Source: a virus. From it: a stretch of 14,763 nt of DNA. The notes beneath the pieces were generated by a model. It was not told the DNA's origin and made no database searches. It worked only from the letters and a program-made list of their open reading frames with translations. Where the stretch lies: positions 1-14,763 of the IMG/VR virus record IMGVR_UViG_3300036770_001415; one strand, 5' to 3'. A program made the position numbers and the translations under genes. Position 1 is the first letter of the stretch. Each line of letters starts with the position of its first letter. This document shows, one piece after another, positions 1 to 14,763 of this stretch.

Positions 1-127
1 TACAACTACGGAATGGACCGATACGGCTACGGCTGGGGTCCGTGGAGTGCAACAAAATGAGCGAAGGCACAGCATGGAACCAAGGAGAACTCACCGAAGA
101 GACTCGCAAGCTTGTGCTCGAACGCAC
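1..127. repeat. Left copy of the terminal direct repeat (identical to 14637-14763); the contig closes into a 14,636-bp unit
   Basis: A base-by-base comparison shows 1-127 (tacaactacggaatggaccg...ctcgaacgcac) equals 14637-14763. The repeat carries the 3' end of the transglycosylase gene (stop TGA at 58-60, equivalent to 14694-14696) and the 5' end of the next gene (ATG at 57, equivalent to 14693). Confidence 0.97.
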
Positions 128-320
128 CGAGCATGTCAATCACACGATGGCAATCTTTGATCTGTTGGATGACATTATGCAAGTCAGCAAGAACCCTCAC
201 GCATCAATCATCCGTCGGTTGCAAACAATGAAGAACCAGTTGTCATTGAATGATCCGATGCCGGTCCATGATGTGACTACACTCGATCAAGCAATCAAAG
301 CACTACAAGCACACTCATAG
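57..320 (+). CDS. Hypothetical protein, 87 aa, predicted helical, no recognisable domain
   Basis: This is the ORF-track entry 42..320. I prefer the ATG at 57 because it overlaps the stop of the preceding transglycosylase gene as ATGA (57-60) once the genome is circularised. Translation starts MSEGTAWNQGELTEETRKL... Confidence 0.7.
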   Translation: MSEGTAWNQGELTEETRKLVLERTEHVNHTMAIFDLLDDIMQVSKNPHASIIRRLQTMKNQLSLNDPMPVHDVTTLDQAIKALQAHS

Positions 321-334
321 AAAAGGCATCCGAC

Positions 335-682
335 ATGTCCGACCAGTACGAAATGTTCCAAGTGATCACAGGGCTCGCAGGCACTAAAGCAGTGCCAGTA
401 GATCGCAATGTGATCATCGTTGCAAATAAAGCACAGCCAACTTCACAGCGTGCAGCGATCAAAGCGTTCCCACGATCAGGCACAAAACGCCAAAAGATCT
501 ACAACGCGATTCGACTCTTCAAGGGTCTTACCGATGAAGAAATTGAGCGCACACTTGAGATGTCAGGCAACACTGTCCGACCTTCGCGTGTGTCACTTGT
601 GCGCGACGGGCTAGTCATGGATTCGGGCCAGACTCGACAAACTGTGTCTGGCAATGATGCGATCGTCTGGGTGGTGTGCTAA
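335..682 (+). CDS. Winged helix-turn-helix DNA-binding protein, 115 aa
   Basis: The C-terminal two thirds read KRQKIYNAIRLFKGLTDEEIERTLEMSGNTVRPSRVSLVRDGLVMDSGQTRQTVSGNDAIVWVV. This matches the common phage wHTH pattern (LTDxEI...NTxRPRRxxLxxxGxIxDSG...R...SG..AIVW). The stop TAA at 680-682 overlaps the next ATG. Confidence 0.8.
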   Translation: MSDQYEMFQVITGLAGTKAVPVDRNVIIVANKAQPTSQRAAIKAFPRSGTKRQKIYNAIRLFKGLTDEEIERTLEMSGNTVRPSRVSLVRDGLVMDSGQTRQTVSGNDAIVWVVC

Positions 683-1260
683 TGGGCTTTGATCTCAGCA
701 ACTATGAAACAGTCGAGCAGCGCTTAGTGCGCTTCTGGGCAACATTTCCAGACGGTCGTATTGAGACCTGCATGATGAACTATGACGGTGACTCTTGCAT
801 CTTCCGTGCAGAGCTCTACCGACATGCAGACGATGCCAAACCGATGTCAGTCGGTTACGCGCATGAGCAAAGATCTGACCGTGGGGTCAATATGACTAGC
901 TGGTGCGAAAACGGAGAAACTTCGGCAATCGGTCGCGCCATCAGCAATAGCCCCATCCAAGGACAAGGCAACGGTCCAAGACCTTCTCGTCAAGAGATGG
1001 AAAAGGTCGCTCGGCTGGGGGGCAACCTAGCGCCCACCACTGATCGCCCAGCCGGGCAACCATCCACACAAGAACACATCCCTCGAGGAGCGTTCGCGAC
1101 ACCAAAGCAACTCGGCTACATCAAGAAGCTTGCCAAGGATGCCGGCATGGATGATCTTCGACTATTGGAACTAATCCATCGTGAACTCAACGATGACAGC
1201 GCGGTCTTAGAACTATTGAAGTCACATGAAGCGAGCAAGATCATTGAGGTACTCAAATGA
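682..1260 (+). CDS. Probable ssDNA-binding or single-strand-annealing protein (Rad52-like motif) with a C-terminal helical KQxxYIxxL...EASxxIxxL module, 192 aa
   Basis: The ORF track gives 676..1260. The ATG at 682 overlaps the upstream stop as TAATG. The N-terminal domain FDLSNYETVEQRLVRFW...VNMTSWCENGETSAIGRAISN resembles the (A/E)ETSA(I/L)GRAL motif I associate with phage Rad52/Sak-like annealing proteins. This rests on recollection, not a search. The C-terminus reads TPKQLGYIKKLAKDAGMD...SHEASKIIEVLK. I am confident it is coding and only tentative about its function. Confidence 0.55.
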   Translation: MGFDLSNYETVEQRLVRFWATFPDGRIETCMMNYDGDSCIFRAELYRHADDAKPMSVGYAHEQRSDRGVNMTSWCENGETSAIGRAISNSPIQGQGNGPRPSRQEMEKVARLGGNLAPTTDRPAGQPSTQEHIPRGAFATPKQLGYIKKLAKDAGMDDLRLLELIHRELNDDSAVLELLKSHEASKIIEVLK

Positions 1261-1400
1261 CATTAGAAGAATTGGTCAATGCGATTGAACGCTTGCAAGC
1301 GGTATATGTAGAGCTGCGCGACGAGCAAGACAAAGCGAAACAAAAAATCCGATGGGCTATCAATCATTTAGCTGACAAAATCTGGTCGGAGTCGCTGTGA
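1257..1400 (+). CDS. Small hypothetical coiled-coil protein, 47 aa (below the ORF-track cutoff)
   Basis: My own translation is MTLEELVNAIERLQAVYVELRDEQDKAKQKIRWAINHLADKIWSESL*. The ATG at 1257 overlaps the upstream stop as ATGA. Its stop TGA (1398-1400) overlaps the downstream GTG start as GTGA, so it exactly bridges two supported genes. Confidence 0.6.
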   Translation: MTLEELVNAIERLQAVYVELRDEQDKAKQKIRWAINHLADKIWSESL

Positions 1401-1738
1401 AGTTTGACAAGAACATGAGCGAAGCCGAGTTGAAAGAAGTCGTCATCTCGGTCGCACGCAGATATGGCTGGTTGATCCATCATGATCTGCCTGCACAGAA
1501 CTCTCGAGGACGCTGGCTCACCAATGTCCAAGGCGACGCAGGCTTCCCAGATCTACTGATGGTCCATCCTGTGTCCGGCAAAGTGCTAGCGGTAGAGCTC
1601 AAAGCGGAACGCGGAAAGCTGTCACCATTGCAGAAGCGATGGCTGATGGCATTCGATACGGGATCGCACTTCAATAGCGTCTGGAAGCCCAGCGATATGG
1701 AGTACATTCTCTACACTCTGAGCAACTTTCAGATCTAA
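1397..1738 (+). CDS. VRR-NUC domain nuclease (PD-(D/E)xK fold, possible junction-resolving or processing nuclease), 113 aa
   Basis: The sequence GFPDLLMVHPVSGKVLAVELKAERGKLSPLQKRWL matches the VRR-NUC signature (G-x-PD ... E-x-K ... G-x-L-S-x-x-Q-x-x-W). The start is a GTG coupled to the upstream stop. Confidence 0.88.
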   Translation: MKFDKNMSEAELKEVVISVARRYGWLIHHDLPAQNSRGRWLTNVQGDAGFPDLLMVHPVSGKVLAVELKAERGKLSPLQKRWLMAFDTGSHFNSVWKPSDMEYILYTLSNFQI

Positions 1739-2133
1739 TTACATAGCTGGTACTCGGTGTGCCTCGCCGGGCTAAGTCGGGAATTGAGGAGCCCAGCCAG
1801 CATTGATCGCTTGATGATCCACGACCTAAGCCATTCGCACGGCAGTTGGTGACACTCGGTAACGAGGGTAGACCGACGCGCCCTCAATCATGCAAGACGA
1901 AGTGAGCGAGGCAAGGCGTCGGGGCGAGCTGTGAACATAATCAGCTGATGAGTGCAAAGGGTACGGGTTAGGGCAACCCCGTGGGTGGAGCATTCATCCC
2001 TGTATGTCTTCCCCGTTCGCATAACATACATACAAACAAACACAGCAGACATGGACACACACACATGAGCCCGACATCATCAACAAGGACAAGCCACGCA
2101 GTGGCGCGTCAGCACAAGCGAAGCGCGTGAGCC
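1739..2133 (+). promoter_or_regulatory. 395-bp ORF-free region immediately upstream of the HNH-terminase gene; candidate cos/pac site, main promoter and/or origin
   Basis: I mapped stop codons in all three + frames and found no + strand ORF longer than about 20 codons. The left part (1740-2015) is G+C-rich with local hairpins, for example 1963-1982 acgggttagggcaaccccgt. The right part (about 2018-2130) is A/C-rich and T-poor. It is the only gap longer than about 52 nt in the genome. The function is inferred from its position. Confidence 0.5.
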
Positions 2134-3897
2134 ATGCCACGAGAACGCACAACAAACAACAAAGAATATGCAACCAACCGTGCAGCATTACTCAAAGGAC
2201 AACCGATGTGTCACTGGTGTCATCGCAAAGTTGCAGACACAGCAGATCATCTAGTCGAGGTTGATCGCGGTGGCGACCACTCACTCTCGAACCTTGTGCC
2301 GGCATGCAGAGAATGCAACAGCAGACGCGGAACACAATACAAAAGCGCACGCGACCGCCAACGAATCCACGACCGAGCCGAAGCAACACGCACACCAATC
2401 GTGAGAGATGGATTTTGTTCTGACGAACAGTCCTTGCCCCCGAGCCCATCGTTCTCTTTCTCCCCGAAGGACAGCGACCAGCCTGAACCAGAGCTCATTG
2501 GTCATGACCAGCCGAGACTGGCAACGATCAGCCCGGATCAGCTGGGATCACATGTGTGGGGTGTGGTGGAGTGGGCTCGCAAGTTCATGCAGATGGAGTT
2601 GATGGAGTGGCAGATCAATGCTCTTGCGGATCAGCTTGCGTATTCGGATGATGCCGGTATTGAGCTTGTGACTCGCACTTCTTTGGTGTCGTGTGCTCGC
2701 CAGCAGGGAAAGTCTGTTGCGCTTCGAGCTCTTGCTGGGTGGTGGCTGACTGAGATGCCAAAGATTCGCGGTGAGAAGCAGACTGTGCTTTTGATGGCTC
2801 ATCGTCTTGATTCGGCCGCACAGATCTATGAGGAAATTGCTGACATTCTTGAGCAATACTTTGATGCAAAGCTCACACGCTCTTATGGTCGTCTTGCTGC
2901 CAAGTTGCCGGACGGATCCAAGCTTCTAGTGCGTTCCGCAAAGCCCAATGCAGCGCACGGTCTGTCCGTTGATCTTGCTCTTGTAGACGAAGTGTGGGGA
3001 ATTGACGAAGAAGTGATTGATGGTGGTATCACACCGACAATGCGCGCACGCCGCTTTCCATTGTTGAGCATGTGGTCTACTGCCGGCACAGAAGAATCTA
3101 AAGTCATGCAACGCTATCGAGAGATGGGTCTTCGTCTGATTGACACACATCAGCCGACTAACTTTCACTTCCGTGAATGGTCTCCACCGCCAGACCTAGA
3201 CCCGATGGATCCTGTCGCATGGTGCTATGCGAACCCAGCGCTCGGCAAAACACTTGAGATGTCCACCATTGAATCAGAAGCACAGCTCCCCGATCGCGCA
3301 TCATTCCTACGCTCGAGTGTGAACCTTTGGATCGCGACTGATCGCTCATGGCTCCCACAGGGTCTCTGGACACAGCTCGCCACTAGTGAACCGTTGCCGG
3401 CTGGCGGTGTCGTCGCGGTAGAGGTGGACTTCAATGACTCGCACTATTACGCCACACGATCGGTCCTGCTGCCGGACGGTCGCATCGGTGTCACAGTTGC
3501 ATTCACTTGCGACACACAAACCCAGCTATGGGAACATGTGCGCGAACTTGCCAAAGACCCCACAATCCAATTCGCGCTCACACCGACAGTCGATCTGCAA
3601 TGCCCACCTGCGATCGAGCGTCGGCGTGTTGTCGTGGGTTATGCAGAAATCTTGAAATGGACTCCAGCTGTCCAAGGTCTAATCCGTGAGCGACAGATCG
3701 TCCACACAGGCGAGATGGCGTTAGCAGAGCATGTCGTGCGCGCGGTAAGTGTTCGCACACAAGGCAGTATCGCGGTCAGCTCGCAAAGGTCTCCCGGACC
3801 CATCGAGCTATGTCGCACGATGATCTTCAGTAGCGCGATCGTTGCCGGCAATCGTCATGCTCGAGGGAAGCCACAGCTCGTCGTTGTAGCGAACTAA
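2134..3897 (+). CDS. HNH endonuclease fused to the large terminase subunit (TerL), 587 aa
   Basis: The N-terminus CHWCHRKVADTADHLVEVDRGGDHSLSNLVPACRECNSRRG is a zinc-finger HNH motif (CxxC...DH...N...CxxCN). A low-complexity linker follows (aa about 75-135, SLPPSPSFSFSPKDSDQPEPE). Next comes the TerL ATPase, with a Walker A-like CARQQGKSVA and a Walker B DLALVDEVW, then a C-terminal RNase H-like nuclease region (VAVEVDFNDSHYYAT...). It is one uninterrupted reading frame. Confidence 0.9.
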   Translation: MPRERTTNNKEYATNRAALLKGQPMCHWCHRKVADTADHLVEVDRGGDHSLSNLVPACRECNSRRGTQYKSARDRQRIHDRAEATRTPIVRDGFCSDEQSLPPSPSFSFSPKDSDQPEPELIGHDQPRLATISPDQLGSHVWGVVEWARKFMQMELMEWQINALADQLAYSDDAGIELVTRTSLVSCARQQGKSVALRALAGWWLTEMPKIRGEKQTVLLMAHRLDSAAQIYEEIADILEQYFDAKLTRSYGRLAAKLPDGSKLLVRSAKPNAAHGLSVDLALVDEVWGIDEEVIDGGITPTMRARRFPLLSMWSTAGTEESKVMQRYREMGLRLIDTHQPTNFHFREWSPPPDLDPMDPVAWCYANPALGKTLEMSTIESEAQLPDRASFLRSSVNLWIATDRSWLPQGLWTQLATSEPLPAGGVVAVEVDFNDSHYYATRSVLLPDGRIGVTVAFTCDTQTQLWEHVRELAKDPTIQFALTPTVDLQCPPAIERRRVVVGYAEILKWTPAVQGLIRERQIVHTGEMALAEHVVRAVSVRTQGSIAVSSQRSPGPIELCRTMIFSSAIVAGNRHARGKPQLVVVAN

Positions 3898-3947
3898 GAT
3901 CAGCGCGGAGTCGCGTGTCAAGCCTTTCGTCGGAGAAGGTTCCCCCG

Positions 3948-5087
3948 ATGCGCGACTCCACTAGAAAACTGTGGAAGAGTGGACACATGGGATTATTCAA
4001 CCGAGTGAACAAACCAGCATTGGCAACTGAATACGGCGCGATAGAGATCACTGCGGCAGTCGGTGGCTCGAATGTCGGCGCATCACAAGTCGGCAACTAC
4101 ATCGCGTACTCAGACGGAACTGGTCGCGAGCGGATGATGAGCTTGGCTGTCATTGCGCGTGCAAGAGACTTGATCTGCACCACGATCTCAGGCATGAAGT
4201 TTGAGATGTATCGTGAAATGTGGAACGGCGACGAAATGGAAGAAGTGCCACTCGCACCACGCGCATGGCTTGCACGCATGGACAAAGGCGTGCCGAACTC
4301 CACGCTCCTCAGCTGGCTTGCTGATGACCTCATCTTCTGGGGTCGCGCCTTCCTCTATGTGAATGAAAGGACCAGCGATCTTTATCCTTCAAGCTACACA
4401 AGACTCCCGGCAGCAATGGTCCAGACACTCGACCAGCAAGGTCCGGTCTTCTTCGGACCATCAAATCAGGTGCTATTCAACGGCATGGAAATTGACTCGC
4501 GAGATCTGATCCAATTCATCAGCCCGATGCAAGGCATTCTCTTCACCGGTCGCCGACCAGCCGAAACAGCAATCCGCATCGAAGAGGCACGCATGCGAAA
4601 CGCATCCTCAGCAATCCCAGCTGGCGTACTCAAGCAGACAGGCGGAGAACCACTAAGCGGTCAAGAACTCGCAGACCTTGCTGCACAGTTCAACCTTGCG
4701 CGAGCAACAAACCAGACCGCAGCGCTCAATGAGTTCCTCAGCTACACAGAGACCAACGCAACACCAGACAAGATGCTTCTCATCGACTCAGCTGATTACA
4801 GTGCGCGCGATCTCGGTCGTCTTCTTGGCGTTCCTAGTTACTTGCTGTCGGTCAGCATCGGCGCATACAGCTACCAGTCAGCCCAGCAATCACGCATGGA
4901 TCTCTGGCAATACGCATGCAAACCGATCGCAGACTGCATCACACAAACCTTGTCAAGCGACAACAATCTTCCACGCGGAACCATGGTCAAGTTCGATGTC
5001 GATGACTTCCTCTCCGAGACCTACATGGGCGACGAAATGGAAGACCGCGAAGAGATGCCAGATCAGTCCACTATGGGCGCAAGCTGA
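3948..5087 (+). CDS. Portal protein (HK97-type portal family), about 379 aa
   Basis: Portal-like blocks are present: WLARMDKGVPNSTLLSWLADDLIFWGRAFLYVNER and IPAGVLKQTGGEPLSGQELADLAAQFN. The gene sits directly after TerL. The ORF track opens at a GTG at 3915. I prefer the ATG at 3948, which is preceded by GGAGAAGG (3932-3939). The ATG at 3987 (MGLFNRV...) is an alternative. Confidence 0.88.
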   Translation: MRDSTRKLWKSGHMGLFNRVNKPALATEYGAIEITAAVGGSNVGASQVGNYIAYSDGTGRERMMSLAVIARARDLICTTISGMKFEMYREMWNGDEMEEVPLAPRAWLARMDKGVPNSTLLSWLADDLIFWGRAFLYVNERTSDLYPSSYTRLPAAMVQTLDQQGPVFFGPSNQVLFNGMEIDSRDLIQFISPMQGILFTGRRPAETAIRIEEARMRNASSAIPAGVLKQTGGEPLSGQELADLAAQFNLARATNQTAALNEFLSYTETNATPDKMLLIDSADYSARDLGRLLGVPSYLLSVSIGAYSYQSAQQSRMDLWQYACKPIADCITQTLSSDNNLPRGTMVKFDVDDFLSETYMGDEMEDREEMPDQSTMGAS

Positions 5088-5105
5088 TCGGATAAAGTCA
5101 CGACT

Positions 5106-8573: not shown

Positions 8574-8683
8574 CAGAATTGCTAGTTGCTCTTTCGTGGG
8601 CTCCGCGCTTTTACGAGGAAGAGTTTGACACCGCCGATCTACTCACTGTCACTACTGTGTTAGAGGAGAAGAACAGGAAATAG
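8286..8683 (+). CDS. Tail assembly chaperone, -1 frameshift (G-T-like) form, about 132 aa
   Basis: The -1 frame opens at 8537, immediately after a TGA at 8534-8536, and runs to a TAG at 8681-8683. It encodes ...YPRGTHRRLLAELLVALSWAPRFYEEEFDTADLLTVTTVLEEKNRK*. The other frame is closed quickly. The slippery A_AAC_CCT lies at 8537-8543 in the zero frame. Confidence 0.62.
8537..8543 (+). promoter_or_regulatory. Candidate -1 programmed ribosomal frameshift heptamer A AAC CCT
   Basis: The zero-frame codons are GAA AAC CCT. The pattern X XXY YYZ is satisfied with X=A, Y=C, Z=T. The site lies exactly where the -1 frame becomes open and 28 nt before the zero-frame stop. Confidence 0.55.
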
Positions 8684-8687
8684 TGAT

Positions 8688-9278
8688 ATGGCGAGAACAG
8701 GCTTGGAAGTTTATGGGATCAAAGAGACCCTCAAGCAACTAAACAAACTCGCCCCAGATCTTCGTCGCGAAATCACGCGCGACTACAAGCGCATCACTTT
8801 GCCAATGGTTCAAGCTGCACGAACTGCCGTGCCGGGTGAGCCACCGTTGTCTGGCATGTATCGCAAGTGGCGACGCGGTGGACCGTGGTACGGATCTAAA
8901 GTGGATCAGAAAATAAATGTCAAAATCGACACTCGACGCGCGCGCAAAAAGAATCTACAAAAGGGCGCACAGTACGAGACTCTCGGCGCGTTCGTATTCC
9001 AGTCCAATGAAACATGGGGTCAGATATTCGACATGGCTGGACGAAACCAAGCCAAAGACGGAACCGTCCAAAAGCGTGTCTATGGTGGCAAAGAATACCG
9101 ATACACATGGAACAACACGCTGATCCAAAACCTCAACATCAACTGGGGTCGCGCGTCGCGCTACATGTATCCAACCGCTGAAAGCTATGAGTCAATCCTC
9201 GAGCATGAGATCCAAGGTCTTGTCTGGAAAACTGAACGACTACTCGCAGAAGCAATCGCAAGAAGTGAGGGCAACTAA
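8688..9278 (+). CDS. HK97 gp10-like neck / head-tail joining family protein with a basic insertion, 196 aa
   Basis: The N-terminus GLEVYGIKETLKQLNKLAPDLRREITRDYKRITLPMVQAARTAVPGEPPLSG fits the gp10-family pattern (G.kel...L.kl......a......iv..Ak..vP..tG.L). A later block reads GAFVFQSNETWGQIFDMAGR. An AGGAAA SD lies 7 nt upstream. The stop overlaps the tape measure start as TAATG. Confidence 0.6.
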   Translation: MARTGLEVYGIKETLKQLNKLAPDLRREITRDYKRITLPMVQAARTAVPGEPPLSGMYRKWRRGGPWYGSKVDQKINVKIDTRRARKKNLQKGAQYETLGAFVFQSNETWGQIFDMAGRNQAKDGTVQKRVYGGKEYRYTWNNTLIQNLNINWGRASRYMYPTAESYESILEHEIQGLVWKTERLLAEAIARSEGN

Positions 9279-11185
9279 TGGCTATTCGCATCCCCATCAT
9301 CACCGACTTCCAAGGTGACGGACTCAAGAAAACTTTTGAGGAGTTCAAGAAACTCGAGACCAATTCGGAACGCGCATCCTTTGCTCTAAAGAAAGCATTC
9401 ATCCCAGCGACCGCAGCTCTCGCAGGATTGACCGCTGGACTCGCAATGAGCGCAAAAGCAGCTGCAGAAGATCAAGCTGCACAGGTCCAACTTGCGCGCC
9501 AGCTCCAAGCAACGACCGGAGCAACAGACAAACAGATCCAAGCCAATGAGGATTTCGTGAGCACGCTGTCTCGTAGCGCAGCGGTCGCCGACGATGAGCT
9601 TCGTCCAGCACTTGCCAGCCTTGTGCGTGGTACGGGGGATCTTGCTTCAGCGCAGGACGCGCTCAAGACCGTGCTCGATGTCTCCGCTGCTACCGGCAAG
9701 GGAGTGCAAGAAGTAGCAGATGCAGTCTCAAAGGCTTACGCAGGCAACACCAAAGCAATCAAGCAACTCTCACCAGAACTCTATGCTCTAATCAAAGACG
9801 GTGCATCCGTTGATGAAGTAATGCAGTCACTTGCTTCGACTTTCGGTGGCGCTGCATCAACCGCTGCAAACACAGCGCAAGGCAAGTTCAAGAACCTCAC
9901 CATCCAGCTAGGCGAAGCCAAAGAAGCAATCGGAACCGCGCTTCTTCCAGTCGTTGAGATCATGGTCGGCGCGTTTACCAACTTTGCAGTCTGGGCACAA
10001 AAGAACGCAGGCGTGATCCTTGGCATTGCAACCGCCATCGGAGCGATAGCTGCAGCAATCGTCGGAACCAACATCGCACTCGCAGCATGGAAGACCGTCA
10101 GCGTCATCACAATCGGCATCAACTATGCGCTCGCTGCATCGTTCACAGCTGTCCAAGTTGCAACCGGTGTAGGCATCGCAGTAGTGATCGCTGGTGTTGC
10201 AGCGTTCGCACTTTACAAGCGCCAGATGAACGGACTCAAAGATGATCTCGGTGGGGTCGCAGCACAGCAAGGTCTGACAAATCAGCAGATGCAACGCATG
10301 TCGGACTCTGGGAAACTTGCGACCGAAACTGTGACTGGCTTGACCGATGCTGCAACGGGTGCTGGCGGCGCGGTGGACAAGATGGCAGAGAAGATCAAGA
10401 AGGCACGCGAAGAACTTGCTGATCAGTTCAGCACAGCACTCGACACAGCCAAAGGAAAACTAGACGAAGCAAAGAAAGCCTATGACGAGTTCAAGCAAAC
10501 GGTCTCCGAATCGGTTACTGGCGAGTTCTCCATCTCGGGTGCAGCCGACGCTGCCAAAGAAGCCGGAACCACGATCCTCAACCAGCTAACCCAGCAGGCA
10601 ACAGGCGCTCAACAGTTCTCCAAGCAAGTGGAGCAACTGCTCACGATGGGCTTGTCCGAGGACGCGCTCAGGAAGGTCCTAGAGGCTGGTCAAGAAGCTG
10701 GGGGTGCAATTGCCAACGAGCTGATTTTGGGTGGCTCAGAAGCGATTACAGGACCCAATGGGATCAACCAGCTGGTCAGTGACTTGAACTATGTCGCGGA
10801 CGCTTTGGGAACCCTTGCAGCTGACAAGTTCTATAAGGCTGGAGTCACGCAAGGTGAGCAGTATTTGGCTGGCGTACAGTCAGCAATCCAAGCTGCCGAG
10901 CAACTACTCAAAAACCCGAACCTCAAGCTCGCTGATGTCAAAGGCATCGGAGCGAAGTTCGCCGGCACGGTCGCAGGCATCGACACAGGAGCACCATCAT
11001 CACCGACATCGGCTCCGGGTGGAGTTGCAGCGGCGCGCGGTGGAAACAACTACACAGTCAATGTGAACGGCGGAGTGCTCACTAACGCTCAGACAGGAAA
11101 AGTCGTGATCGACGCTGTAAAGAGCTTCAACCGTGCATCGGGTCCAGCAGACATTTCGGTCCGTCCAATTAGCGGAAGATACTAA
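9278..11185 (+). CDS. Tape measure protein, 635 aa
   Basis: It is the longest tail-region ORF and is Ala/Gln/Lys-rich and helical. A central cluster of hydrophobic transmembrane-like helices is present (LLPVVEIMVGAFTNFAVWA...ILGIATAIGAIAAAIVGTNIALAAW...VGIAVVIAGVAAFALY). It lies downstream of the chaperone genes. I saw no muralytic motif in it. Confidence 0.9.
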   Translation: MAIRIPIITDFQGDGLKKTFEEFKKLETNSERASFALKKAFIPATAALAGLTAGLAMSAKAAAEDQAAQVQLARQLQATTGATDKQIQANEDFVSTLSRSAAVADDELRPALASLVRGTGDLASAQDALKTVLDVSAATGKGVQEVADAVSKAYAGNTKAIKQLSPELYALIKDGASVDEVMQSLASTFGGAASTAANTAQGKFKNLTIQLGEAKEAIGTALLPVVEIMVGAFTNFAVWAQKNAGVILGIATAIGAIAAAIVGTNIALAAWKTVSVITIGINYALAASFTAVQVATGVGIAVVIAGVAAFALYKRQMNGLKDDLGGVAAQQGLTNQQMQRMSDSGKLATETVTGLTDAATGAGGAVDKMAEKIKKAREELADQFSTALDTAKGKLDEAKKAYDEFKQTVSESVTGEFSISGAADAAKEAGTTILNQLTQQATGAQQFSKQVEQLLTMGLSEDALRKVLEAGQEAGGAIANELILGGSEAITGPNGINQLVSDLNYVADALGTLAADKFYKAGVTQGEQYLAGVQSAIQAAEQLLKNPNLKLADVKGIGAKFAGTVAGIDTGAPSSPTSAPGGVAAARGGNNYTVNVNGGVLTNAQTGKVVIDAVKSFNRASGPADISVRPISGRY

Positions 11186-12489
11186 TGCCAGCGTCCGTCA
11201 TCCAGTCAGGCGAGTATCTGCTTGAGATTGATACCGGCTGGGATAGCTCCAGCTTTCAACTTGACTCAGCGACAAAGGGCGTGCTTGACAACACGACATA
11301 CAAGCTCGGACCGACGACAGAGTTCGCTGATGTGACCGACGGTTTGCTTGATGTATCTATCACGCGCGGACGAAAAGACATCGGAGACCAGTTCACTCCC
11401 GGCATCATGAACTTCACACTCAACGACCAGCTCGCAAATGGAGCATTCAACCCATTCAACACAGACTCGCCAACCTATGATCCTGCGAACAATCAGCCAG
11501 GAATCGCACCCATGCGTCGAGTGCGCTTTTACCGATACGATTCAACCAGCACAGCCGAATCACTTTTCCAAGGTTTTATCGTGAATTATGACTACCAGTT
11601 CAATCTGGACGGCAACGACCTACTCAGCATTCAAGCAATCGACGACCAGTATCTTCTGTCGCAAGCATTCCTAGACGAATGGAATGTCACCGAACAGGTC
11701 GCATCCGCTCGAGTCGTAGAGCTTCTAGCGCTCCCAGAGGTGGATGCTTTTCAAGGTGTCGGTGAACAGTCAATAGAGACCTCATCGGTCACGCTTGGTG
11801 GCACAGGAAACTTCACAGTTCCATCCGGATCCAATGCTCAAGGATATCTAAACGACATTATGGCGGCGGAGCAGGGCCGCGCATTCGTGAACCGTTCGGG
11901 CGTGTTCACATTCCAGCGCAGGCTGGGAGCAACGCTTTCATCTCCCGAGGTTGAGTTCGGCGACAACGACCCAGCACACACACCATACGATTCGGTGTCC
12001 ATCAATTTCGGCGCGGACAAAGTTGTCAATAGAGCAGTCGTGACCCATATCGGCGGAGCAGGATCAGCGACGCCACAGATCGTTGATGATCTTGCAAGCC
12101 AAGCAAAATACTTCATTCAGACTGTCGCCTACACCGAAAGCCTCGTCCATAACGACACGGCAGCGCTCGAGCTTGCAACCTATCTGATCCAAGGCGAACC
12201 GACCGCGACACTTACAAGCGTGACCACAGGTTTCCAGATGCTCTCAAATGCGGAGCGAGACAAGGTTGCCATTCTTGAAATCGGTGACACGATTATTGTA
12301 GAGAAAACTATTGTCACCACAGCAACGACCACTAGCGTCATTGCTCAAGAGTCTGCGGTTGAAGGCATTGAGCATTTGATCAGCTTTGACACACCACATC
12401 AGACGGTGATCTACACATCCCCGACCACGGTCTATGAGCTGTTCATTCTGGACAGTTCCACACTTGACTCGATATACGCACTAAGTTAG
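11185..12489 (+). CDS. Distal tail protein (Dit / siphovirus tail-family minor tail protein), 434 aa
   Basis: The gene comes immediately after the tape measure gene, joined by a TAATG overlap. The motifs LLDVSITRGRKDIGDQFTPGIMNFTLNDQ...FNPFN and the C-terminal ...SAVEGIEHLISFDTPHQTVIYTS resemble the Dit-type minor tail proteins of actinophage-like siphoviruses. Confidence 0.68.
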   Translation: MPASVIQSGEYLLEIDTGWDSSSFQLDSATKGVLDNTTYKLGPTTEFADVTDGLLDVSITRGRKDIGDQFTPGIMNFTLNDQLANGAFNPFNTDSPTYDPANNQPGIAPMRRVRFYRYDSTSTAESLFQGFIVNYDYQFNLDGNDLLSIQAIDDQYLLSQAFLDEWNVTEQVASARVVELLALPEVDAFQGVGEQSIETSSVTLGGTGNFTVPSGSNAQGYLNDIMAAEQGRAFVNRSGVFTFQRRLGATLSSPEVEFGDNDPAHTPYDSVSINFGADKVVNRAVVTHIGGAGSATPQIVDDLASQAKYFIQTVAYTESLVHNDTAALELATYLIQGEPTATLTSVTTGFQMLSNAERDKVAILEIGDTIIVEKTIVTTATTTSVIAQESAVEGIEHLISFDTPHQTVIYTSPTTVYELFILDSSTLDSIYALS

Positions 12490-12496
12490 GAGCACT

Positions 12497-13054
12497 ATGC
12501 CAATCACCACATACACCGCCGGAGAGATCCTGACCGCTGCGTCGCTCAATTCCAACTTCTCTGCAGCTGGTGGATTGCAATTCATCAAAGCGCAAACAAT
12601 TGGATCAGGTGTTTCAACTGTGACCGTTACAGGTGCTTTTAGCGCGACCTACGACACTTATTTGGTAACGGTTTCGGGCGGTGTCGGTAGCGGTGATCTT
12701 GCGTTGAACATGACTTTAGGTGCAACAGCTACTGGCTATTATTGGATAGGAAACAACATTCAATATGGTTCTGCAACAACTAACACTAACTCGGGTAGTA
12801 ACACCACATCTTTTGCGTCAGTTGCGTACGGTTCAACTAACGCGCTATCGGGGCAATGTTTTATAGACAACCCTTTTGCAACCAAAAGAACAATGGTTCG
12901 CTACCAAGCAACAGGCAGCAGCACAACATATTTTATAAACACAAATCAAGGTTTTCTAAACGACGCGACTAGTTACACCGCGTTCACTTTCACAACATCG
13001 ACGGGAACAATAACTGGTGGAACAATCCGCGTCTACGGTTACGCAAACAGTTAG
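12497..13054 (+). CDS. Tail fibre / receptor-binding protein candidate, 185 aa
   Basis: An AGGAG SD lies at 12488-12492. The N-terminal TYTAGEILTAASLNSNF matches the (D/G)(E/D)xLTAAxLN motif common at the N-termini of actinophage minor tail or fibre proteins. The rest is Thr/Ser/Gly/Asn/Tyr-rich and Lys-poor, as in beta-sandwich receptor-binding domains. It is the last structural gene before the lysis genes. Confidence 0.68.
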   Translation: MPITTYTAGEILTAASLNSNFSAAGGLQFIKAQTIGSGVSTVTVTGAFSATYDTYLVTVSGGVGSGDLALNMTLGATATGYYWIGNNIQYGSATTNTNSGSNTTSFASVAYGSTNALSGQCFIDNPFATKRTMVRYQATGSSTTYFINTNQGFLNDATSYTAFTFTTSTGTITGGTIRVYGYANS

Positions 13055-13062
13055 GAAACAAC

Positions 13063-13167
13063 ATGACTTACCTAGTGCAAATAGATGACGAAGTACGCGA
13101 AGCAACACCCGAAGAAGCCGCTCAAATAGAAGCAGAACAAAACGCACCTAACCCTGCAAACGAATAA
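13063..13167 (+). CDS. Possible 34-aa acidic micro-ORF
   Basis: My own translation is MTYLVQIDDEVREATPEEAAQIEAEQNAPNPANE*. AGGA lies about 6 nt upstream of the ATG. It fills the gap between the fibre gene and the membrane protein gene. It is very short, so the call is weak. Confidence 0.3.
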   Translation: MTYLVQIDDEVREATPEEAAQIEAEQNAPNPANE

Positions 13168-13171
13168 TGAA

Positions 13172-13336
13172 ATGGATCCTCAGATTGTGGTGGCTTTGGT
13201 CGGTGGGGGTTTCGCTGTGGTGGTCGCGCTCATTAGCAAAATCGGTAGCGACAACAAAAAAGACCACGGAAAAGTTCACCAGATCCTTGGTCGAATAGAA
13301 GAAAAGATTGACAACCATGTTGAAAATCACGGCTAA
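13172..13336 (+). CDS. Small single-pass membrane protein, 54 aa; holin, antiholin or lysis-regulator candidate
   Basis: My own translation is MDPQIVVALVGGGFAVVVALISKIGSDNKKDHGKVHQILGRIEEKIDNHVENHG*. It has one N-terminal hydrophobic helix followed by a charged helical tail. It overlaps the start of the next membrane protein gene by 20 nt. The alternative ATG at 13167 gives a Trp/Arg/Ser-rich product that looks non-coding. Confidence 0.55.
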   Translation: MDPQIVVALVGGGFAVVVALISKIGSDNKKDHGKVHQILGRIEEKIDNHVENHG

Positions 13337-13511
13337 AGACAAAGCAATGCTTGCCAGCTATGCGCGATCAGCAATCGGTGCGATGCTCGCTGTGTACTCG
13401 GTCGGCGCGACAGATCCTCGAGACTTCGCCAAAGCAGCGATCGCAGCAGTACTCCCACCGATCATCCGCTGGGCGAACCCGAAAGATTTATCCTTTGGGC
13501 GCACCAAATAG
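13317..13511 (+). CDS. Holin-like membrane protein (r1t-holin-like pattern), 64 aa
   Basis: The sequence is MLKITAKDKAMLASYARSAIGAMLAVYSVGATDPRDFAKAAIAAVLPPIIRWANPKD. Two amphipathic or hydrophobic Ala-rich segments are separated by a turn, and the gene lies directly upstream of the endolysin. The track start at 13308 is a TTG and I prefer the ATG at 13317. Confidence 0.68.
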   Translation: MLKITAKDKAMLASYARSAIGAMLAVYSVGATDPRDFAKAAIAAVLPPIIRWANPKDLSFGRTK

Positions 13512-13563
13512 CAGACCGTACACCGGCACAGCTGACGGACCAGCGAAAGCGCGTCGCGCTGGC

Positions 13564-13974
13564 ATGGACGAATGGATCAAACAAGCGATCCACGCATCTG
13601 GAAACACGCTCACAAACCTTGGATCGTATGCGATCAGAGACCAGAAGGGTCACGCTGGAGTTCTGAGTGTTCACGCGACTGGTAGAGCTGTCGATCTTGG
13701 CTTCACCGATCGCAAAGCAGCGCTCAAGTTCATCAACACAGTTGCACAGAACGCGAACGAGCTCGGTGTTGAGTGCATTCTCGATTACTTTCCGAAGCCT
13801 TGGGGTCGCGGATATCGCTGTGACCGACAAAAGTGGAAGCGCTACATGAAGCGGACGATCGCTGGCGCACCGGGCGGACGATGGGCTCATTTTGAGATCA
13901 CACCACAAGCTGCGGACTCGGTGATCTGGGTCAAATCCGCGTTCCTAAAGGTCTTTGGAGAAATCCACCAATAG
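13564..13974 (+). CDS. Endolysin, LAS/M15-type zinc peptidase (D-Ala-D-Ala carboxypeptidase or L-Ala-D-Glu peptidase-like), 137 aa
   Basis: SVHATGRAVDL (S-x-H-x-x-G-x-A-x-D) and GGRWAHFEI (W-x-H-F-E) are the metal-ligand motifs of M15/LAS peptidases. The track ORF opens at 13351, but its first 71 codons overlap the holin out of frame and are Arg/Ser-rich junk. The first ATG after the holin stop is at 13564. Confidence 0.85.
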   Translation: MDEWIKQAIHASGNTLTNLGSYAIRDQKGHAGVLSVHATGRAVDLGFTDRKAALKFINTVAQNANELGVECILDYFPKPWGRGYRCDRQKWKRYMKRTIAGAPGGRWAHFEITPQAADSVIWVKSAFLKVFGEIHQ

Positions 13975-14022
13975 CGCACACGCATGCCCTAGGGTCGAAT
14001 TACCGACGAAAGAGCAGCGATT

Positions 14023-14199
14023 ATGGCAGAACCTCAGATCTTCAACTACTCCGTGTACACAGGAGTGATGGATAACGGACAAGAGATCCTCGTGCAGATA
14101 TTCACTGAACCTGACACCGGCAAATACCTACTCGGACAGATTGCATTCAGATCGCACGCTTCATCATGGGGCGTGCCTATACCACTGGAGAAAAAATGA
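14023..14199 (+). CDS. Small hypothetical protein, 58 aa (below the ORF-track cutoff)
   Basis: My own translation is MAEPQIFNYSVYTGVMDNGQEILVQIFTEPDTGKYLLGQIAFRSHASSWGVPIPLEKK*. The stop overlaps the ATG of the transglycosylase gene as ATGA (14196-14199). It contains no hydrophobic segment. Confidence 0.5.
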   Translation: MAEPQIFNYSVYTGVMDNGQEILVQIFTEPDTGKYLLGQIAFRSHASSWGVPIPLEKK

Positions 14200-14696
14200 A
14201 CTACTTTGCAGAGAAATTGATAGGGCTAGTACTTTGTACTGTTTTCGGATTCACGCTTATCCCAGAGGCTCCTAGAGCCCTCTCAGAGCCTTCCCAGACC
14301 ATAGAACTAGCACCATATTTGATTGAACCAGCCACCACAACCAGCTCTACAAGCTCCACGATCTACATCGATCCATACAGCTCAGCCTGTGAGCAGTTCA
14401 GCGCACTCGCCATCAATCTCGGCTGGGATCCGGATCAACGGACCGTACTCGAGTCGATCATGTTCAGAGAGTCGCGTTGCATCCCCAGCAGCGTGAACCC
14501 GAACGATCCGAAAGGCTCCTATGGGCTCATGCAGGTCAATGGATTCTGGCTGGAATATCTGAGCGACCGTGGCATCATCACCGAGCTCTCAGATCTGTTA
14601 CAGGCTCAAACTAATCTCATTGCAGCGTTAGAGATTTACAACTACGGAATGGACCGATACGGCTACGGCTGGGGTCCGTGGAGTGCAACAAAATGA
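14196..14696 (+). CDS. Lytic transglycosylase (SLT/GH23-like) with an N-terminal signal-anchor and a Thr/Ser-rich linker, 166 aa
   Basis: The N-terminus MNYFAEKLIGLVLCTVFGFTLIPEAP is hydrophobic. A linker EPATTTSSTSSTIYIDPYSS follows. The catalytic domain has MFRESRC (the E-S catalytic Glu motif), GSYGLMQVNGFW and AALEIYNYG. The track start at 14166 lies upstream, and the ATG at 14196 is coupled to the preceding ORF. The gene runs into the terminal repeat. Confidence 0.85.
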   Translation: MNYFAEKLIGLVLCTVFGFTLIPEAPRALSEPSQTIELAPYLIEPATTTSSTSSTIYIDPYSSACEQFSALAINLGWDPDQRTVLESIMFRESRCIPSSVNPNDPKGSYGLMQVNGFWLEYLSDRGIITELSDLLQAQTNLIAALEIYNYGMDRYGYGWGPWSATK

Positions 14697-14763
14697 GCGA
14701 AGGCACAGCATGGAACCAAGGAGAACTCACCGAAGAGACTCGCAAGCTTGTGCTCGAACGCAC
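14637..14763. repeat. Right copy of the terminal direct repeat (identical to 1-127)
   Basis: Exact 127-nt identity with the start of the window. Its length equals a k-mer size commonly used as the maximum in de Bruijn assemblers, so it is probably a circular-assembly overlap rather than a measured physical terminal repeat. Confidence 0.97.

What the first reader, a model, noticed from the sequence alone, without database searches (positions are those of the whole stretch)
1..14763. Apparently complete, ultra-compact (14,636 bp) siphovirus-type genome with no replication enzymes, integrase or TerS
The exact 127-nt identity between the two contig ends closes the sequence into a 14,636-bp unit. 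That unit carries a full head, neck, tail and lysis set plus only about five non-structural genes, all on one strand. I recognised no polymerase, primase, helicase, integrase or repressor. This places it near the lower size limit I know of for tailed phages with a long non-contractile tail; I recall 14-17 kb Rhodococcus and Microbacterium phages as the nearest precedents. Several motifs suggest an actinobacterial host: the LTAAxLN fibre N-terminus, the adaptor pattern and the r1t-like holin. That host assignment is an inference.
Basis: partly seen in the sequence, partly recalled or inferred. Interest (0 to 1): 0.7.

Follow-up and report, generated by a model that had tools for sequence, protein, structure and literature searches.

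The report
Tiny tailed phage; terminase gene spans cos
This is a complete 14.6-kb genome of an uncultured long-tailed phage, one of hundreds of close relatives in public metagenomes, and its DNA ends appear to lie inside the gene for its own packaging enzyme, next to a conserved folded RNA of unknown role.

Summary
The two contig ends share an exact 127-nt repeat, giving a 14,636-bp unit. All genes are on one strand, and the head, neck, tail and lysis sets are complete. I found no polymerase, primase, helicase or integrase.

The genome is not a fragment. At least 247 IMG/VR contigs (53-96% capsid identity among the 80 fetched) never exceed about 15.8 kb, apart from tandem-dimer assemblies. Seven close independently into 13.7-15.3-kb circles. 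No prophage copy was found in 185,579 species genomes.

- **Genome ends.** The virion DNA is most likely linear with a 10-nt 3' cohesive end, CCCGAGCCCA (2439-2448). Relatives' contigs stop just before this 10-mer or start just after it. One ends there with an Illumina adapter. Microbacterium cluster EE phages have a measured 9-nt 3' overhang, CCCGCCCCA.
- **cos inside a gene.** This site lies inside the linker of a conserved HNH-TerL fusion ORF, so the packaged DNA would carry that gene split in two.
- **Non-structural genes.** These include an SSAP-like recombinase, a VRR-NUC nuclease and a winged-helix DNA binder.
- **Structured RNA.** The only large intergenic region holds a covariation-supported RNA with no Rfam match.

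An actinobacterial host is plausible but unproven.

The parts
1..127 (.). Assembly overlap; identical to 14637-14763. It lies inside the 3' end of g21 and the start of g01.
   Evidence: Exact 127-nt terminal identity. Independent contig L161 reads across the junction.
57..320 (+). g01, 87 aa, function unknown. Conserved only in the closer relatives.
   Evidence: No Pfam or PHROG family. Homologues at 52-78% identity in 36 loci.
335..682 (+). g02, 115 aa. Disordered N-terminus plus a winged helix-turn-helix DNA-binding domain. Could be a regulator; a TerS-like or initiator role is not excluded.
   Evidence: phrog_1123, unknown function. AF2 model pLDDT 74.8 with H-H-H-H-beta-beta topology. Foldseek PDB best matches are the ROK repressor N-domain, TFE-alpha, HlyU/ArsR and MarR, probability 1.0.
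676..1260 (+). g03, 192-194 aa; the likely start is ATG 682. SSAP-like recombinase: a RAD52/ERF-type alpha-beta-beta-beta-alpha core plus a Red-beta-like C-terminal three-helix domain.
   Evidence: phrog_11717, unknown function. No significant sequence match to PDB or Pfam. AF2 model. Foldseek PDB: RAD52 at probability 0.63-0.72; Red-beta C-terminal domain at probability 1.0, TM 0.70-0.75, rmsd 1.5 A. BFVD: ERF, SSAP, RecT and RAD52-annotated viral proteins at E 1e-5 to 8e-4. Found in 86 related loci.
1257..1400 (+). g04, 47 aa, a small helical protein of unknown function.
   Evidence: Only a sub-threshold Pfam hit. Homologues in 8 loci.
1397..1738 (+). g05, 113 aa, VRR-NUC family nuclease (PD-(D/E)XK; resolvase or exonuclease-like).
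   Evidence: Pfam PF08774, E 5e-9, above the curated cut-off. PHROG endonuclease and Holliday junction resolvase families. Conserved in 71 loci.
1807..2110 (+). Conserved structured RNA candidate in the only large intergenic region (1739-2133). The core modelled is 1855-2001.
   Evidence: RNAalifold on a MAFFT alignment of 21 relatives: 65 pairs, 20 with compensatory changes. Covariance model R1 matches the + strand only, upstream of HNH. 98.5% of cells are paired versus about 40% when partners are slid; 22 of 37 pairs change on both sides. No Rfam match and no tRNA. The single-sequence folding z-score is unremarkable at -0.69.
2134..3897 (+). HNH-TerL fusion, 587 aa. HNH domain about aa 1-90, linker about aa 91-125, TerL ATPase plus nuclease aa 126-587.
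   Evidence: Pfam HNH (aa 26-67) and TerL_nuclease; PHROG 9 terminase large subunit, E 5e-42. All 73 read-through contigs keep one frame with no stop. At least 26 full-length fusions occur among the 150 best 50%-identity cluster representatives.
2439..2448 (+). Proposed cos cohesive end, 5'-CCCGAGCCCA-3', a 10-nt 3' overhang. The last paired base of the right end is 2438 and the first base of the left end is 2449. It lies in codons P102-P105 of HNH-TerL. Flanking conserved elements are a T-run (2413-2419) and a pyrimidine tract (2449-2465).
   Evidence: The 10-mer is unique in the window. Family consensus CCCG[ACT][GCA]CCC[ATC], with C-CCCG invariant in 32 non-redundant lineages. Contig ends pile up on both sides of it. 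L177 starts exactly at 2449. L212 ends ...CCCGACCCTT followed by an Illumina adapter. Cluster EE has a 3' overhang CCCGCCCCA.
3915..5087 (+). Portal protein. The start is uncertain: the public gene call begins at 3987, giving 366 aa.
   Evidence: Pfam Phage_portal E 1e-21 and PHROG 12. Gene call in L001.
5106..6650 (+). Prohead protease (S78) - scaffold - major capsid fusion protein, 514 aa.
   Evidence: Pfam Peptidase_S78 (aa 16-149) and Phage_capsid_4 (aa 290-503). phrog_2263 major head protein, E 1e-77. tblastn matches cluster EE 'major capsid and protease fusion protein' at 25% identity.
6671..7297 (+). g09, 208 aa, head-tail connector or adaptor (C-terminal half).
   Evidence: phrog_5938 connector, E 2.5e-7.
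7288..7835 (+). g10 (7288-7659, 123 aa) and g11 (7656-7835, 59 aa). Neck or head-tail joining candidates, assigned by position only.
   Evidence: phrog_6768 of unknown function for g10; nothing for g11. Position between connector and major tail protein.
7838..8245 (+). Major tail protein, 135 aa.
   Evidence: phrog_4574 major tail protein, E 1e-20.
8286..9278 (+). g13 (8286-8573, 95 aa) and g14 (8688-9278, 196 aa). They lie between the major tail protein and the tape measure protein, so they are tail assembly chaperone or tail completion candidates. No frameshift was examined.
   Evidence: No family match. Assigned by position only.
9278..11185 (+). Tape measure protein, 635 aa.
   Evidence: phrog_1535 and phrog_4704 tail length tape measure.
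11185..13054 (+). g16 (11185-12489, 434 aa) and g17 (12497-13054, 185 aa). Distal tail and fibre-like proteins. g17 starts MPITTYTAGEILTAASLN.
   Evidence: Only phrog_5313 (unknown function) for g16. No Pfam match. Sequence read. Assigned by position only.
13172..14696 (+). Lysis block.
- g18 (13172-13336): one transmembrane helix, holin-like.
- g19a (13308-13511): membrane protein.
- g19b: real start probably 13564, running to 13974; LAS/M15-like peptidase.
- g20 (14023-14199).
- g21 (14166-14696): N-terminal membrane anchor plus SLT lytic transglycosylase domain.
   Evidence: Pfam SLT_3 and SLT for g21. g19b carries an SxHxxGxAxD motif plus invariant H and E, with only weak hits to Peptidase_M15_4 and VanXY. 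Sequences read.

Best explanation
The window is the complete genome of an uncultured, probably strictly lytic, long-tailed (siphovirus-type) phage. It belongs to a large family whose genomes are 13.7-15.8 kb.

Proposed cycle:
1. In the cell the DNA is circular or concatemeric, which is why it assembles as a circle.
2. A single HNH-TerL fusion protein packages it and cuts at a cos site (inferred). This leaves 10-nt 3' cohesive ends, CCCGAGCCCA (2439-2448).
3. The cos site is written into the linker codons (Pro-Pro-Ser-Pro) of the HNH-TerL gene itself. Virion DNA therefore carries the TerL part (aa 106-587) at its left end and the HNH part (aa 1-105, with no stop codon) at its right end.
4. The gene is whole again only after the ends anneal and are ligated following injection (inferred).
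5. Transcription then runs one way round the circle (inferred).

Replication relies on host enzymes (inferred). It may be helped by a phage SSAP-like recombinase (g03), a VRR-NUC nuclease (g05) and a winged-helix DNA binder (g02). A conserved structured RNA just upstream of HNH-TerL probably acts as a leader or regulatory or priming element; its role is not shown.
For: **Completeness**
- 127-nt overlap. Independent circular relatives have units of 13,698, 14,294, 14,791, 15,045, 15,252 and 15,287 bp.
- At least 247 IMG/VR relatives were found; none of the 80 fetched in the capsid scan exceeds 15,769 bp.
- The longer contigs that turned up in later scans (16.0-16.8, 24.7, 26.4 and 31.5 kb) include one shown to be a tandem dimer of 15.7-kb units that are 92% alike. 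The fetched 3.5-kb end of a second holds only family genes. The 26.4-kb contig and the 16-kb ones were not examined further.
- Only 4 short stand-alone hits occur in 185,579 species genomes.

**cos site**
- 36 of 78 contigs start in one 200-nt bin, where about 1 would be expected by chance.
- Of the 33 ends placed reliably, from both sides, 7 of 13 left ends start at the first base after the 10-mer. 8 of 20 right ends stop at the base before it.
- L177 starts at window position 2449 and is identical over its first 60 nt.
- One contig ends at the 10-mer followed by an Illumina adapter.
- C-CCCG is invariant in 32 lineages, although CCC is the rarest proline codon here at 10%.
- Noelani's record ends in CCCGCCCCA. 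Cluster EE phages have a measured 9-base 3' overhang 5'-CCCGCCCCA-3' (PMC10652884). HNH is also their last gene.

**Fusion**
- 73 of 73 read-through contigs are in frame with no stop.
- There are at least 26 full-length fusion clusters, the most distant about 29% identical.

**Gene content:**

**RNA:**
Against: - No reads were available, so the termini are inferred from contig ends in relatives, not from this genome's own reads.
- The window contig and the Logan contig from the same run both read through the site.
- Overhang polarity is indirect. One contig (L212) carries the 10-mer at both ends, which by itself would fit a 5' overhang.
- About half of the mapped ends are ragged, falling a few to about 67 nt away.
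- 56 of the 89 distinct contig ends examined could not be placed, for lack of a close read-through relative.
- TerS was not identified. A cos phage would normally need a recognition subunit.
- The g03 assignment rests on a medium-confidence model (pLDDT 73.5). PDB E-values are weak (0.03-0.1), and sequence profiles found nothing.
- The RNA's folding energy is not unusual.
Confidence: 0.8

Rival explanations
1. The genome is circularly permuted and packaged by a headful mechanism. The pile-up of contig ends in the HNH-TerL linker would then be an assembly or sequencing artefact of a C-rich, polypyrimidine, low-complexity tract or a strain-variable spot.
For: The site is C-rich and followed by a pyrimidine tract. 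Some contigs, such as L009, break on both sides of the RNA+HNH segment. Many ends are ragged. The window itself assembles through the site.
Against: - Ends from many samples and from lineages only 53-73% identical in capsid stop exactly before the 10-mer and start exactly after it.
- One contig has an adapter ligated at the 10-mer boundary.
- The 10-mer matches the experimentally determined 3' overhang of cluster EE.
- An HNH next to the terminase is the hallmark of 3'-overhang cos packaging (HK97-type; own knowledge, Kala et al. 2014).
Confidence: 0.07
2. The contig is a fragment or excised part of a larger phage or prophage, or a satellite that depends on a helper phage for missing functions.
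For: No polymerase, primase, helicase or TerS was detected. The genome is very small.
Against: - It closes on itself, and six relatives close at similar sizes.
- Every fetched relative is at most about 16.8 kb, except three longer contigs (24.7, 26.4 and 31.5 kb). One of these is a shown tandem dimer, and the fetched ends of the other two show the same HNH-TerL arrangement.
- No integrated copy was found in 185,579 species genomes.
- It has its own terminase, portal, capsid, tail and lysis genes, unlike satellites.
- Cultured phages of 14-17 kb with the same layout form plaques on their own (PMC7302621, PMC5513430).
Confidence: 0.03
3. HNH and TerL are made as two separate proteins: HNH from the right end and TerL from an internal start after cos. 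On this view the continuous reading frame is a by-product of squeezing cos between two genes, not a functional fusion.
For: - In cluster EE, HNH and terminase are separate genes on either side of cos.
- Purine-rich AAGGA/AGGAAAGG-like stretches follow the cos site in many lineages.
- Public gene callers produce TerL-only products of 430-475 aa.
Against: - 73 of 73 read-through contigs keep the frame with no stop over a linker of variable length, in lineages whose HNH domain is only about 36-45% identical to the window's.
- No in-frame ATG, GTG or TTG was seen between cos and the conserved PRL motif in the window (read by eye).
- The TerL-only products are what gene callers would give on contigs that begin at cos.
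Confidence: 0.1

Closest known systems
Microbacterium phages of cluster EE (Orlajensenviridae; e.g. Noelani, KillerTomato, Burgy; 17.0-17.5 kb)
   Same: - Small siphovirus genome with a protease-capsid fusion gene.
- No integrase or polymerase.
- HNH endonuclease is the last gene before the right end.
- 3' cohesive end with nearly the same sequence: CCCGCCCCA versus CCCGAGCCCA here.
- Best cultured capsid match.

   Different: - Capsid fusion protein is only 25% identical. Of the window's proteins, only the capsid and the HNH domain hit Noelani by tblastn against its DNA at E<=1e-4. There is no nucleotide match.
- 68% G+C versus 52.6%.
- Cluster EE has two genes between cos and the terminase, and HNH is a separate gene.
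- Cluster EE has leftward regulators (lsr2, HTH).
- No SSAP or VRR-NUC is annotated in cluster EE.
- Cluster EE genomes are about 2.7 kb larger.
Other small-genome actinophages: Rhodococcus RRH1 (14,270 bp), Arthrobacter clusters AN/AX/FE (about 15.3-15.6 kb), Gordonia CW/DM and GMA5 (17.6 kb), Curtobacterium Penoan (15.3 kb)
   Same: Same size class and siphoviral layout. Protease-scaffold-capsid fusion has been noted as a shared trait of these small siphoviruses (PMC7302621; PMC5513430). The TerL of cluster AN, GMA5 and Penoan is distantly related, at 25-30% identity.
   Different: Similarity is remote and limited to TerL. RRH1 itself was not among the listed capsid or TerL matches. In those phages the terminase is preceded by other genes and is not fused to HNH. 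Some members of the present family (13,698 bp, L038) would be smaller than RRH1.
HK97-type HNH-dependent cos packaging (gp74 HNH + TerS + TerL)
   Same: An HNH endonuclease is genetically coupled to the large terminase next to cos. The 3' protruding cohesive end is about 10 nt. The HK97 facts come from my own knowledge (Juhala et al. 2000; Kala et al. 2014) and were not re-read here.
   Different: Here HNH is covalently fused to the N-terminus of TerL. cos lies inside that ORF rather than between genes. No TerS was found.
RAD52/ERF/Red-beta single-strand annealing proteins
   Same: g03 has the alpha-beta-beta-beta-alpha core and a C-terminal three-helix domain. That domain superposes on the Red-beta C-terminal domain, which binds lambda exonuclease and SSB.
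   Different: No sequence-level match to any Pfam or PDB SSAP. The protein is short at 192 aa. Its nuclease neighbour is VRR-NUC rather than a lambda-Exo or RecE type.

Membership tests
Tailed phage with long non-contractile tail (siphovirus morphotype) | TerL, portal and HK97-type major capsid protein | tested here: met
   Pfam and PHROG matches above threshold.
Tailed phage with long non-contractile tail (siphovirus morphotype) | Major tail protein and tape measure protein present, tail sheath absent | tested here: met
   phrog_4574 and phrog_1535; no sheath family matched any ORF. Morphology itself cannot be tested here.
Small-genome actinophage group (RRH1 / AN / EE type) | Genome under 18 kb with protease-scaffold-capsid fusion | tested here: met
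   14,636 bp. S78 and capsid domains lie in one 514-aa ORF. The trait is described in PMC7302621.
Small-genome actinophage group (RRH1 / AN / EE type) | Infects an actinobacterial host | not testable with these tools
   Indirect evidence only. 152 of 153 capsid hits and most of 556 TerL hits are actinophages, and the cos sequence is like that of cluster EE. Hits in MAGs fall in four unrelated phyla and are probably mis-binned.
Actinobacteriophage cluster EE / Orlajensenviridae | At least 35% shared gene content with cluster members (PhagesDB rule, as quoted in PMC9670927) | tested here: not met
   Only the capsid fusion (25% identity) and the HNH domain (34%) hit Noelani by tblastn against its DNA at E<=1e-4. 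There is no DNA match.
cos phage with 3' cohesive ends | Defined genome termini at one sequence | tested here: met
   Contig-end pile-up is exact to the base on both sides of the 10-mer in relatives, and one end carries an adapter. This was not tested on reads of this genome.
cos phage with 3' cohesive ends | 3' polarity and length of the overhang | tested here: inconclusive
   The 10-mer is missing from both ends of most contigs, as expected if 3' tails are removed in library preparation. It also resembles the measured cluster EE 3' overhang. However, L212 keeps it at both ends.
HNH-dependent terminase system | HNH endonuclease adjacent to terminase and cos | tested here: met
   HNH (Pfam E 7e-9) is fused to TerL, with cos in the linker.
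HNH-dependent terminase system | Small terminase subunit | tested here: not met
   No TerS family was found in Pfam or PHROGs for any ORF. g02 is a winged-helix protein of generic type.
Temperate phage | Integrase or other integration or partition function | tested here: not met
   No integrase or recombinase family matched. No integrated copy in 185,579 species genomes.
Single-strand annealing protein (RAD52/ERF/Red-beta superfamily), for g03 | beta-beta-beta-alpha DNA-binding core, plus in Red-beta a C-terminal partner-binding helical domain | tested here: inconclusive
   The predicted fold and Foldseek hits agree. However, the model is of medium confidence and sequence profiles are silent.
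Any Rfam 15 RNA family, for the intergenic structured RNA | Covariance-model match | tested here: not met
   No match in the whole window at E<=1, which includes group I intron, hammerhead, HEARO and riboswitch models. No tRNA or tmRNA.

The most novel reading that the evidence does not exclude
The conserved structured RNA of about 300 nt, sitting immediately upstream of HNH-TerL and about 330 bp from cos, may be a working part of replication or packaging. It could be a ColE1-like primer or origin transcript that lets host enzymes replicate the genome without any phage initiator. Alternatively it could be a pRNA-like or recognition cofactor that stands in for the missing TerS. Together with a terminase that cuts inside its own gene, this would describe a minimal tailed-phage design in which cis sites, RNA and coding sequence are overlaid.
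Probability: 0.15. Interest if true: 0.85.

Novelty: new variant of a known kind. Interest (0 to 1): 0.58.

Why it matters
Small siphoviruses of 14-17 kb are known from cultured actinophages. This window shows that a much larger and more diverse uncultured family of the same design exists: hundreds of contigs and at least 26 terminase clusters at 50% identity. Some members (13.7 kb) fall below the published 14.27-kb record.

If the cos assignment is right, the family gives a clear case of a packaging site embedded in the coding sequence of the packaging enzyme. Every virion would then carry that gene in two halves, and circularisation would be a precondition for making terminase. My limited literature search found no described precedent.

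The family also offers a compact system for asking two questions:
- What is the least a tailed phage needs for replication? Here that is a recombinase, a nuclease and a DNA binder.
- What does a conserved phage RNA next to the terminase gene do?

On the practical side, gene callers and virus-completeness tools will mis-annotate these genomes, giving a truncated TerL at contig starts and an HNH without a stop at contig ends.

Tried and rejected
- **Megablast** of the whole unit against 50,697 phage records: no match.
- **Rfam and tRNA.** An Rfam scan of the window at E<=1 and an ARAGORN scan found nothing. Readings of the intergenic RNA as a group I intron carrying the HNH, a hammerhead (it contains CUGAUGAG), HEARO/omega RNA or a riboswitch were therefore dropped. 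The CUGAUGAG also lies inside a covarying helix.
- **Sequence profiles of g03** against PDB and Pfam: only noise, such as Pol lambda at E 0.4 and GemA at E 0.045 for the best alignment member (0.13 for the window protein).
- **Host from genomes.** The capsid profile scan of 185,579 species genomes gave 4 short contigs in MAGs of Omnitrophota, Chitinophagales, Mycobacterium and a betaproteobacterium. I took these as mis-binning.
- **Exact look-up of g03** in the contig index: not on record.
- **Paper searches** for the run and sample identifiers, and for a gene spanning a cos site or an HNH-terminase fusion, gave nothing relevant.
- **'r1t-like holin'**: no Pfam match for g18 or g19a.
- **Sigma-70 promoter and terminator scans** found no more sites than shuffled sequence would.
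- **Folding energy of the RNA region** is not different from shuffles on either strand.
- **First end-mapping attempt.** My first automatic mapping of contig ends used wrong anchors in some lineages. It was redone with corrected anchors.

Full report
**1. Observation**

The window is 14,763 nt. Its first and last 127 nt are identical, and no longer terminal identity exists. This gives a 14,636-bp unit with 52.6% G+C. Overlaps of 99, 123 and 127 nt recur at the ends of related public contigs. From my own knowledge these are assembler k-mer sizes, so the repeat marks a circular assembly path and not a biological terminal repeat.

The closure is real:
- An independent contig from another sample (L161) runs across the 14636->1 junction.
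- All relatives keep the gene order g21 -> g01.

Twenty-two + strand ORFs cover 94% of the unit. The largest minus-strand ORFs have no family match.

**2. Gene content**

Pfam and PHROGs identify the following:
- an HNH domain fused to the large terminase (2134-3897, 587 aa)
- portal
- a prohead-protease/major-capsid fusion (5106-6650)
- a head-tail connector
- a major tail protein
- a 635-aa tape measure protein
- an SLT-type lytic transglycosylase with a membrane anchor
- a VRR-NUC nuclease (1397-1738)

g19b carries the SxHxxGxAxD motif of LAS/M15 peptidases, but its hits are only sub-threshold. Its true start is probably 13564.

No polymerase, primase, helicase, integrase, TerS or sheath family matched any ORF.

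Two unknown proteins were modelled:
- **g03** folds as alpha-beta-beta-beta-alpha plus a three-helix C-terminal domain. It matches RAD52 weakly and the Red-beta C-terminal domain well in the PDB: probability 1.0, TM 0.70-0.75, rmsd 1.5 A. In BFVD it matches viral proteins annotated ERF, SSAP, RecT or RAD52-like. Sequence profiles were silent. I read it as an SSAP-like recombinase, with moderate confidence.
- **g02** is a generic winged helix-turn-helix DNA binder.

**3. A complete genome, not a fragment**

- A scan of IMG/VR with the capsid protein confirmed 247 relatives. The 80 fetched are 52-96% identical, and none exceeds 15,769 bp.
- Circular closures in relatives give units of 13,698, 14,294, 14,791, 15,045, 15,252 and 15,287 bp.
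- A 31.5-kb contig is a tandem dimer of 15.7-kb units that are 92% alike. The fetched 3.5-kb end of a 24.7-kb contig holds only the same genes and stops at the cos position. A 26.4-kb contig and a few of 16.0-16.8 kb from the HNH scan were not examined further.
- A profile scan of one genome for each of 185,579 species found only four short stand-alone contigs, in MAGs of four unrelated phyla, and no integrated copy.
- The nearest relatives share about 80-85% nucleotide identity over about two thirds of the genome. This is therefore a new species-level member of a populous but, as far as I could find, undescribed family.

**4. Where the physical ends are**

Thirty-six of 78 related contigs begin 2,500-2,700 nt upstream of the capsid gene, where about one would be expected by chance. 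Their first bases align to window position about 2449, inside the HNH-TerL ORF. Conversely, many contigs fetched with the HNH domain end right after it.

In all 73 contigs that read through, HNH and TerL form one frame with no stop. The linker carries a conserved DNA motif. Anchored on that motif, 32 non-redundant lineages show:
- an invariant C-CCCG followed by CCC, with consensus CCCG[ACT][GCA]CCC[ATC]
- a T-run about 22 nt upstream
- a pyrimidine tract downstream

CCC is the rarest proline codon in this genome at 10%. The conservation is therefore at the DNA level.

With corrected anchors, and among the ends that could be placed reliably, 7 of 13 left ends start at the first base after the 10-mer. 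Eight of 20 right ends stop at the base before it, and two more stop one base later with a mismatched A. Fifty-six of the 89 distinct ends could not be placed.

Further support:
- L177 starts exactly at window 2449 and is identical over its first 60 nt.
- L212 ends ...CCCGACCCTT followed directly by AGATCGGAAGAGCACACGT, an Illumina adapter. That marks a real DNA end at the 3' edge of the 10-mer.
- The GenBank record of Microbacterium phage Noelani ends in CCCGCCCCA. Cluster EE phages are reported to have a 9-base 3' overhang 5'-CCCGCCCCA-3' (PMC10652884; 3' overhangs also in PMC9670927). HNH is the last gene before that end.

I conclude that the family uses a cos site homologous to that of cluster EE. 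In the window it is CCCGAGCCCA at 2439-2448, most likely a 10-nt 3' overhang. This matches what I recall of HNH-dependent HK97-type packaging.

Caveats:
- No reads were available.
- The window and the Logan contig from the same run read through the site.
- L212 holds the 10-mer at both ends.
- Many ends are ragged.

**5. Consequence**

The top-strand cut falls between codons P105 and S106 of HNH-TerL, and the bottom-strand cut falls within codon P102. Packaged DNA would therefore carry TerL (aa 106-587) at the left end and HNH (aa 1-105, no stop) at the right end. The gene would be restored only after the ends join.

In cluster EE the same elements occur in the order HNH - cos - two genes - terminase. 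Here the intervening genes are gone and the two ORFs have merged across cos.

The fusion is old and diverse. At least 26 of the 150 best 50%-identity cluster representatives are full-length fusions, the most distant about 29% identical. The TerL-only products of 430-475 aa are what gene callers would give on contigs starting at cos. No cultured phage record covers 80% or more of the fusion.

**6. The intergenic RNA**

The only sizeable non-coding stretch (1739-2133) is highly conserved and shows many compensatory changes.
- RNAalifold on a plain MAFFT alignment of 21 relatives predicts 65 pairs, 20 with double changes.
- A covariance model of the core (1855-2001) matches only the + strand, always upstream of HNH, in the close clade and more weakly in L104, L131, L135, L141 and L127.
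- On that alignment 98.5% of cells pair, against about 40% when partners are slid. 22 of 37 pairs change on both sides, and no shuffle reaches these values. That alignment is fitted to the model, so the independent MAFFT result matters.
- Loops are GNRA-type (GUAA, GUGA, GCAA) on the + strand only, which suggests RNA rather than ssDNA.
- A second lineage has its own conserved block at the same place, with shared motifs and some covariation.
- The invariant 19-mer occurs in 49 IMG/VR contigs, and the one that exceeds genome length also belongs to this family.
- Rfam 15 has no match.
- The folding energy is unremarkable.

The function is open: a leader or antitermination element for the late operon, a primer or origin transcript, or a packaging cofactor.

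**7. Host and relatives**

- Capsid tblastn hits are Microbacterium (114), Mycobacterium (37) and Arthrobacter (1) phages, plus one other. The cluster EE capsid-protease fusions give the longest matches, at 25% identity.
- TerL hits 556 records, mostly actinophages. The best hit is Pontimonas phage phiPsal1. The small phages of Arthrobacter cluster AN, Gordonia GMA5 and Curtobacterium Penoan are included.
- The literature describes this size class and its protease-capsid fusion. RRH1, at 14,270 bp, is the smallest reported siphovirus (PMC7302621; PMC5513430).
- The window is not a member of cluster EE, since only two proteins match distantly.
- An actinobacterial host is the best guess. Given 49-63% G+C in the family, it may be an aquatic member of the Microbacteriaceae. 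This remains inference.

**8. Verdict**

- The ends are defined cos ends rather than a true circle.
- A recombination module is present.
- TerS is undetected rather than shown absent.
- The holin motif is unsupported.

As a small siphovirus the genome is a new member of a known kind. The cos site inside a fused HNH-TerL gene and the unclassified structured RNA make it a new variant worth follow-up.

Noticed in passing
window 1807-2110 (+), core 1855-2001: A conserved structured RNA candidate lies in the only large intergenic region. It has strong covariation, GNRA-type loops and no Rfam match, and it always sits upstream of HNH-TerL. Its function is unknown.
   Followed up: partly
L212:15786-15804: This IMG/VR contig ends with the Illumina adapter AGATCGGAAGAGCACACGT directly after ...CCCGACCCTT. 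Adapter sequence has been left in a public contig, and it happens to mark a physical genome end.
   Followed up: yes
L107 and L110 (contig IMGVR_UViG_3300036770_000418, 31,466 bp); also the 24.7-kb and 26.4-kb contigs behind L284 and L118: These contigs are longer than one genome. L107 repeats itself at an offset of 15,722 nt with 92% identity. It is therefore a head-to-tail dimer of two variants, either a concatemer or an assembly chimera. The 26.4-kb contig was not checked.
   Followed up: partly
window 2107 and 13208 (ends of Logan contig L001, run SRR11566349): The 100% identical Logan contig covers only 2107-13208. Its breaks are not at cos: one is 27 nt before the HNH-TerL start and the other is just before the holin-like gene. 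This may reflect strain variation in the lysis and non-structural part. It is unexplained.
   Followed up: no
L009 (14,211 bp), both ends: This contig is otherwise full-length. It starts at the base after the cos 10-mer but ends 66 nt after VRR-NUC, so it lacks about 600 nt (the RNA region plus HNH). Some assemblies evidently also break at the RNA region.
   Followed up: partly
window 13308-13974: The mechanical 207-aa ORF (13351-13974) overlaps g19a (13308-13511) in another frame. Distant relatives align only from about residue 55 onward, and an ATG at 13564 (MDEWIK...) fits better. The N-terminal 70 residues are probably not translated.
   Followed up: partly
L132, L134, L137, L138, L147, L148, L153, L136: between the conserved non-coding block and HNH: In this lineage an extra stretch of about 120-150 nt lies between the RNA-like block and the HNH start. 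It appears to encode a small Cys-rich peptide (...GDCSLCNANNLETDF...PVCLPCQ). The window has no counterpart.
   Followed up: no
L239-L242 (genome contigs): Family contigs are binned into MAGs labelled Omnitrophota, Chitinophagales, Mycobacterium sp. and a betaproteobacterium. These are probably binning errors. L240 (13,357 bp) again starts at the cos position.
   Followed up: partly
proteins P0170-P0183 etc.: Many public 'TerL' products of 430-475 aa begin at residues about 122-157 of the fusion. They look like truncated gene calls on contigs that start at cos. This would bias domain-architecture statistics for this terminase family.
   Followed up: no
homologues of g03 (P0001 and others): The precomputed annotation gives these proteins Pfam PF27148. 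That family is absent from the local Pfam copy, so I could not read its description. It may already name this protein family.
   Followed up: no
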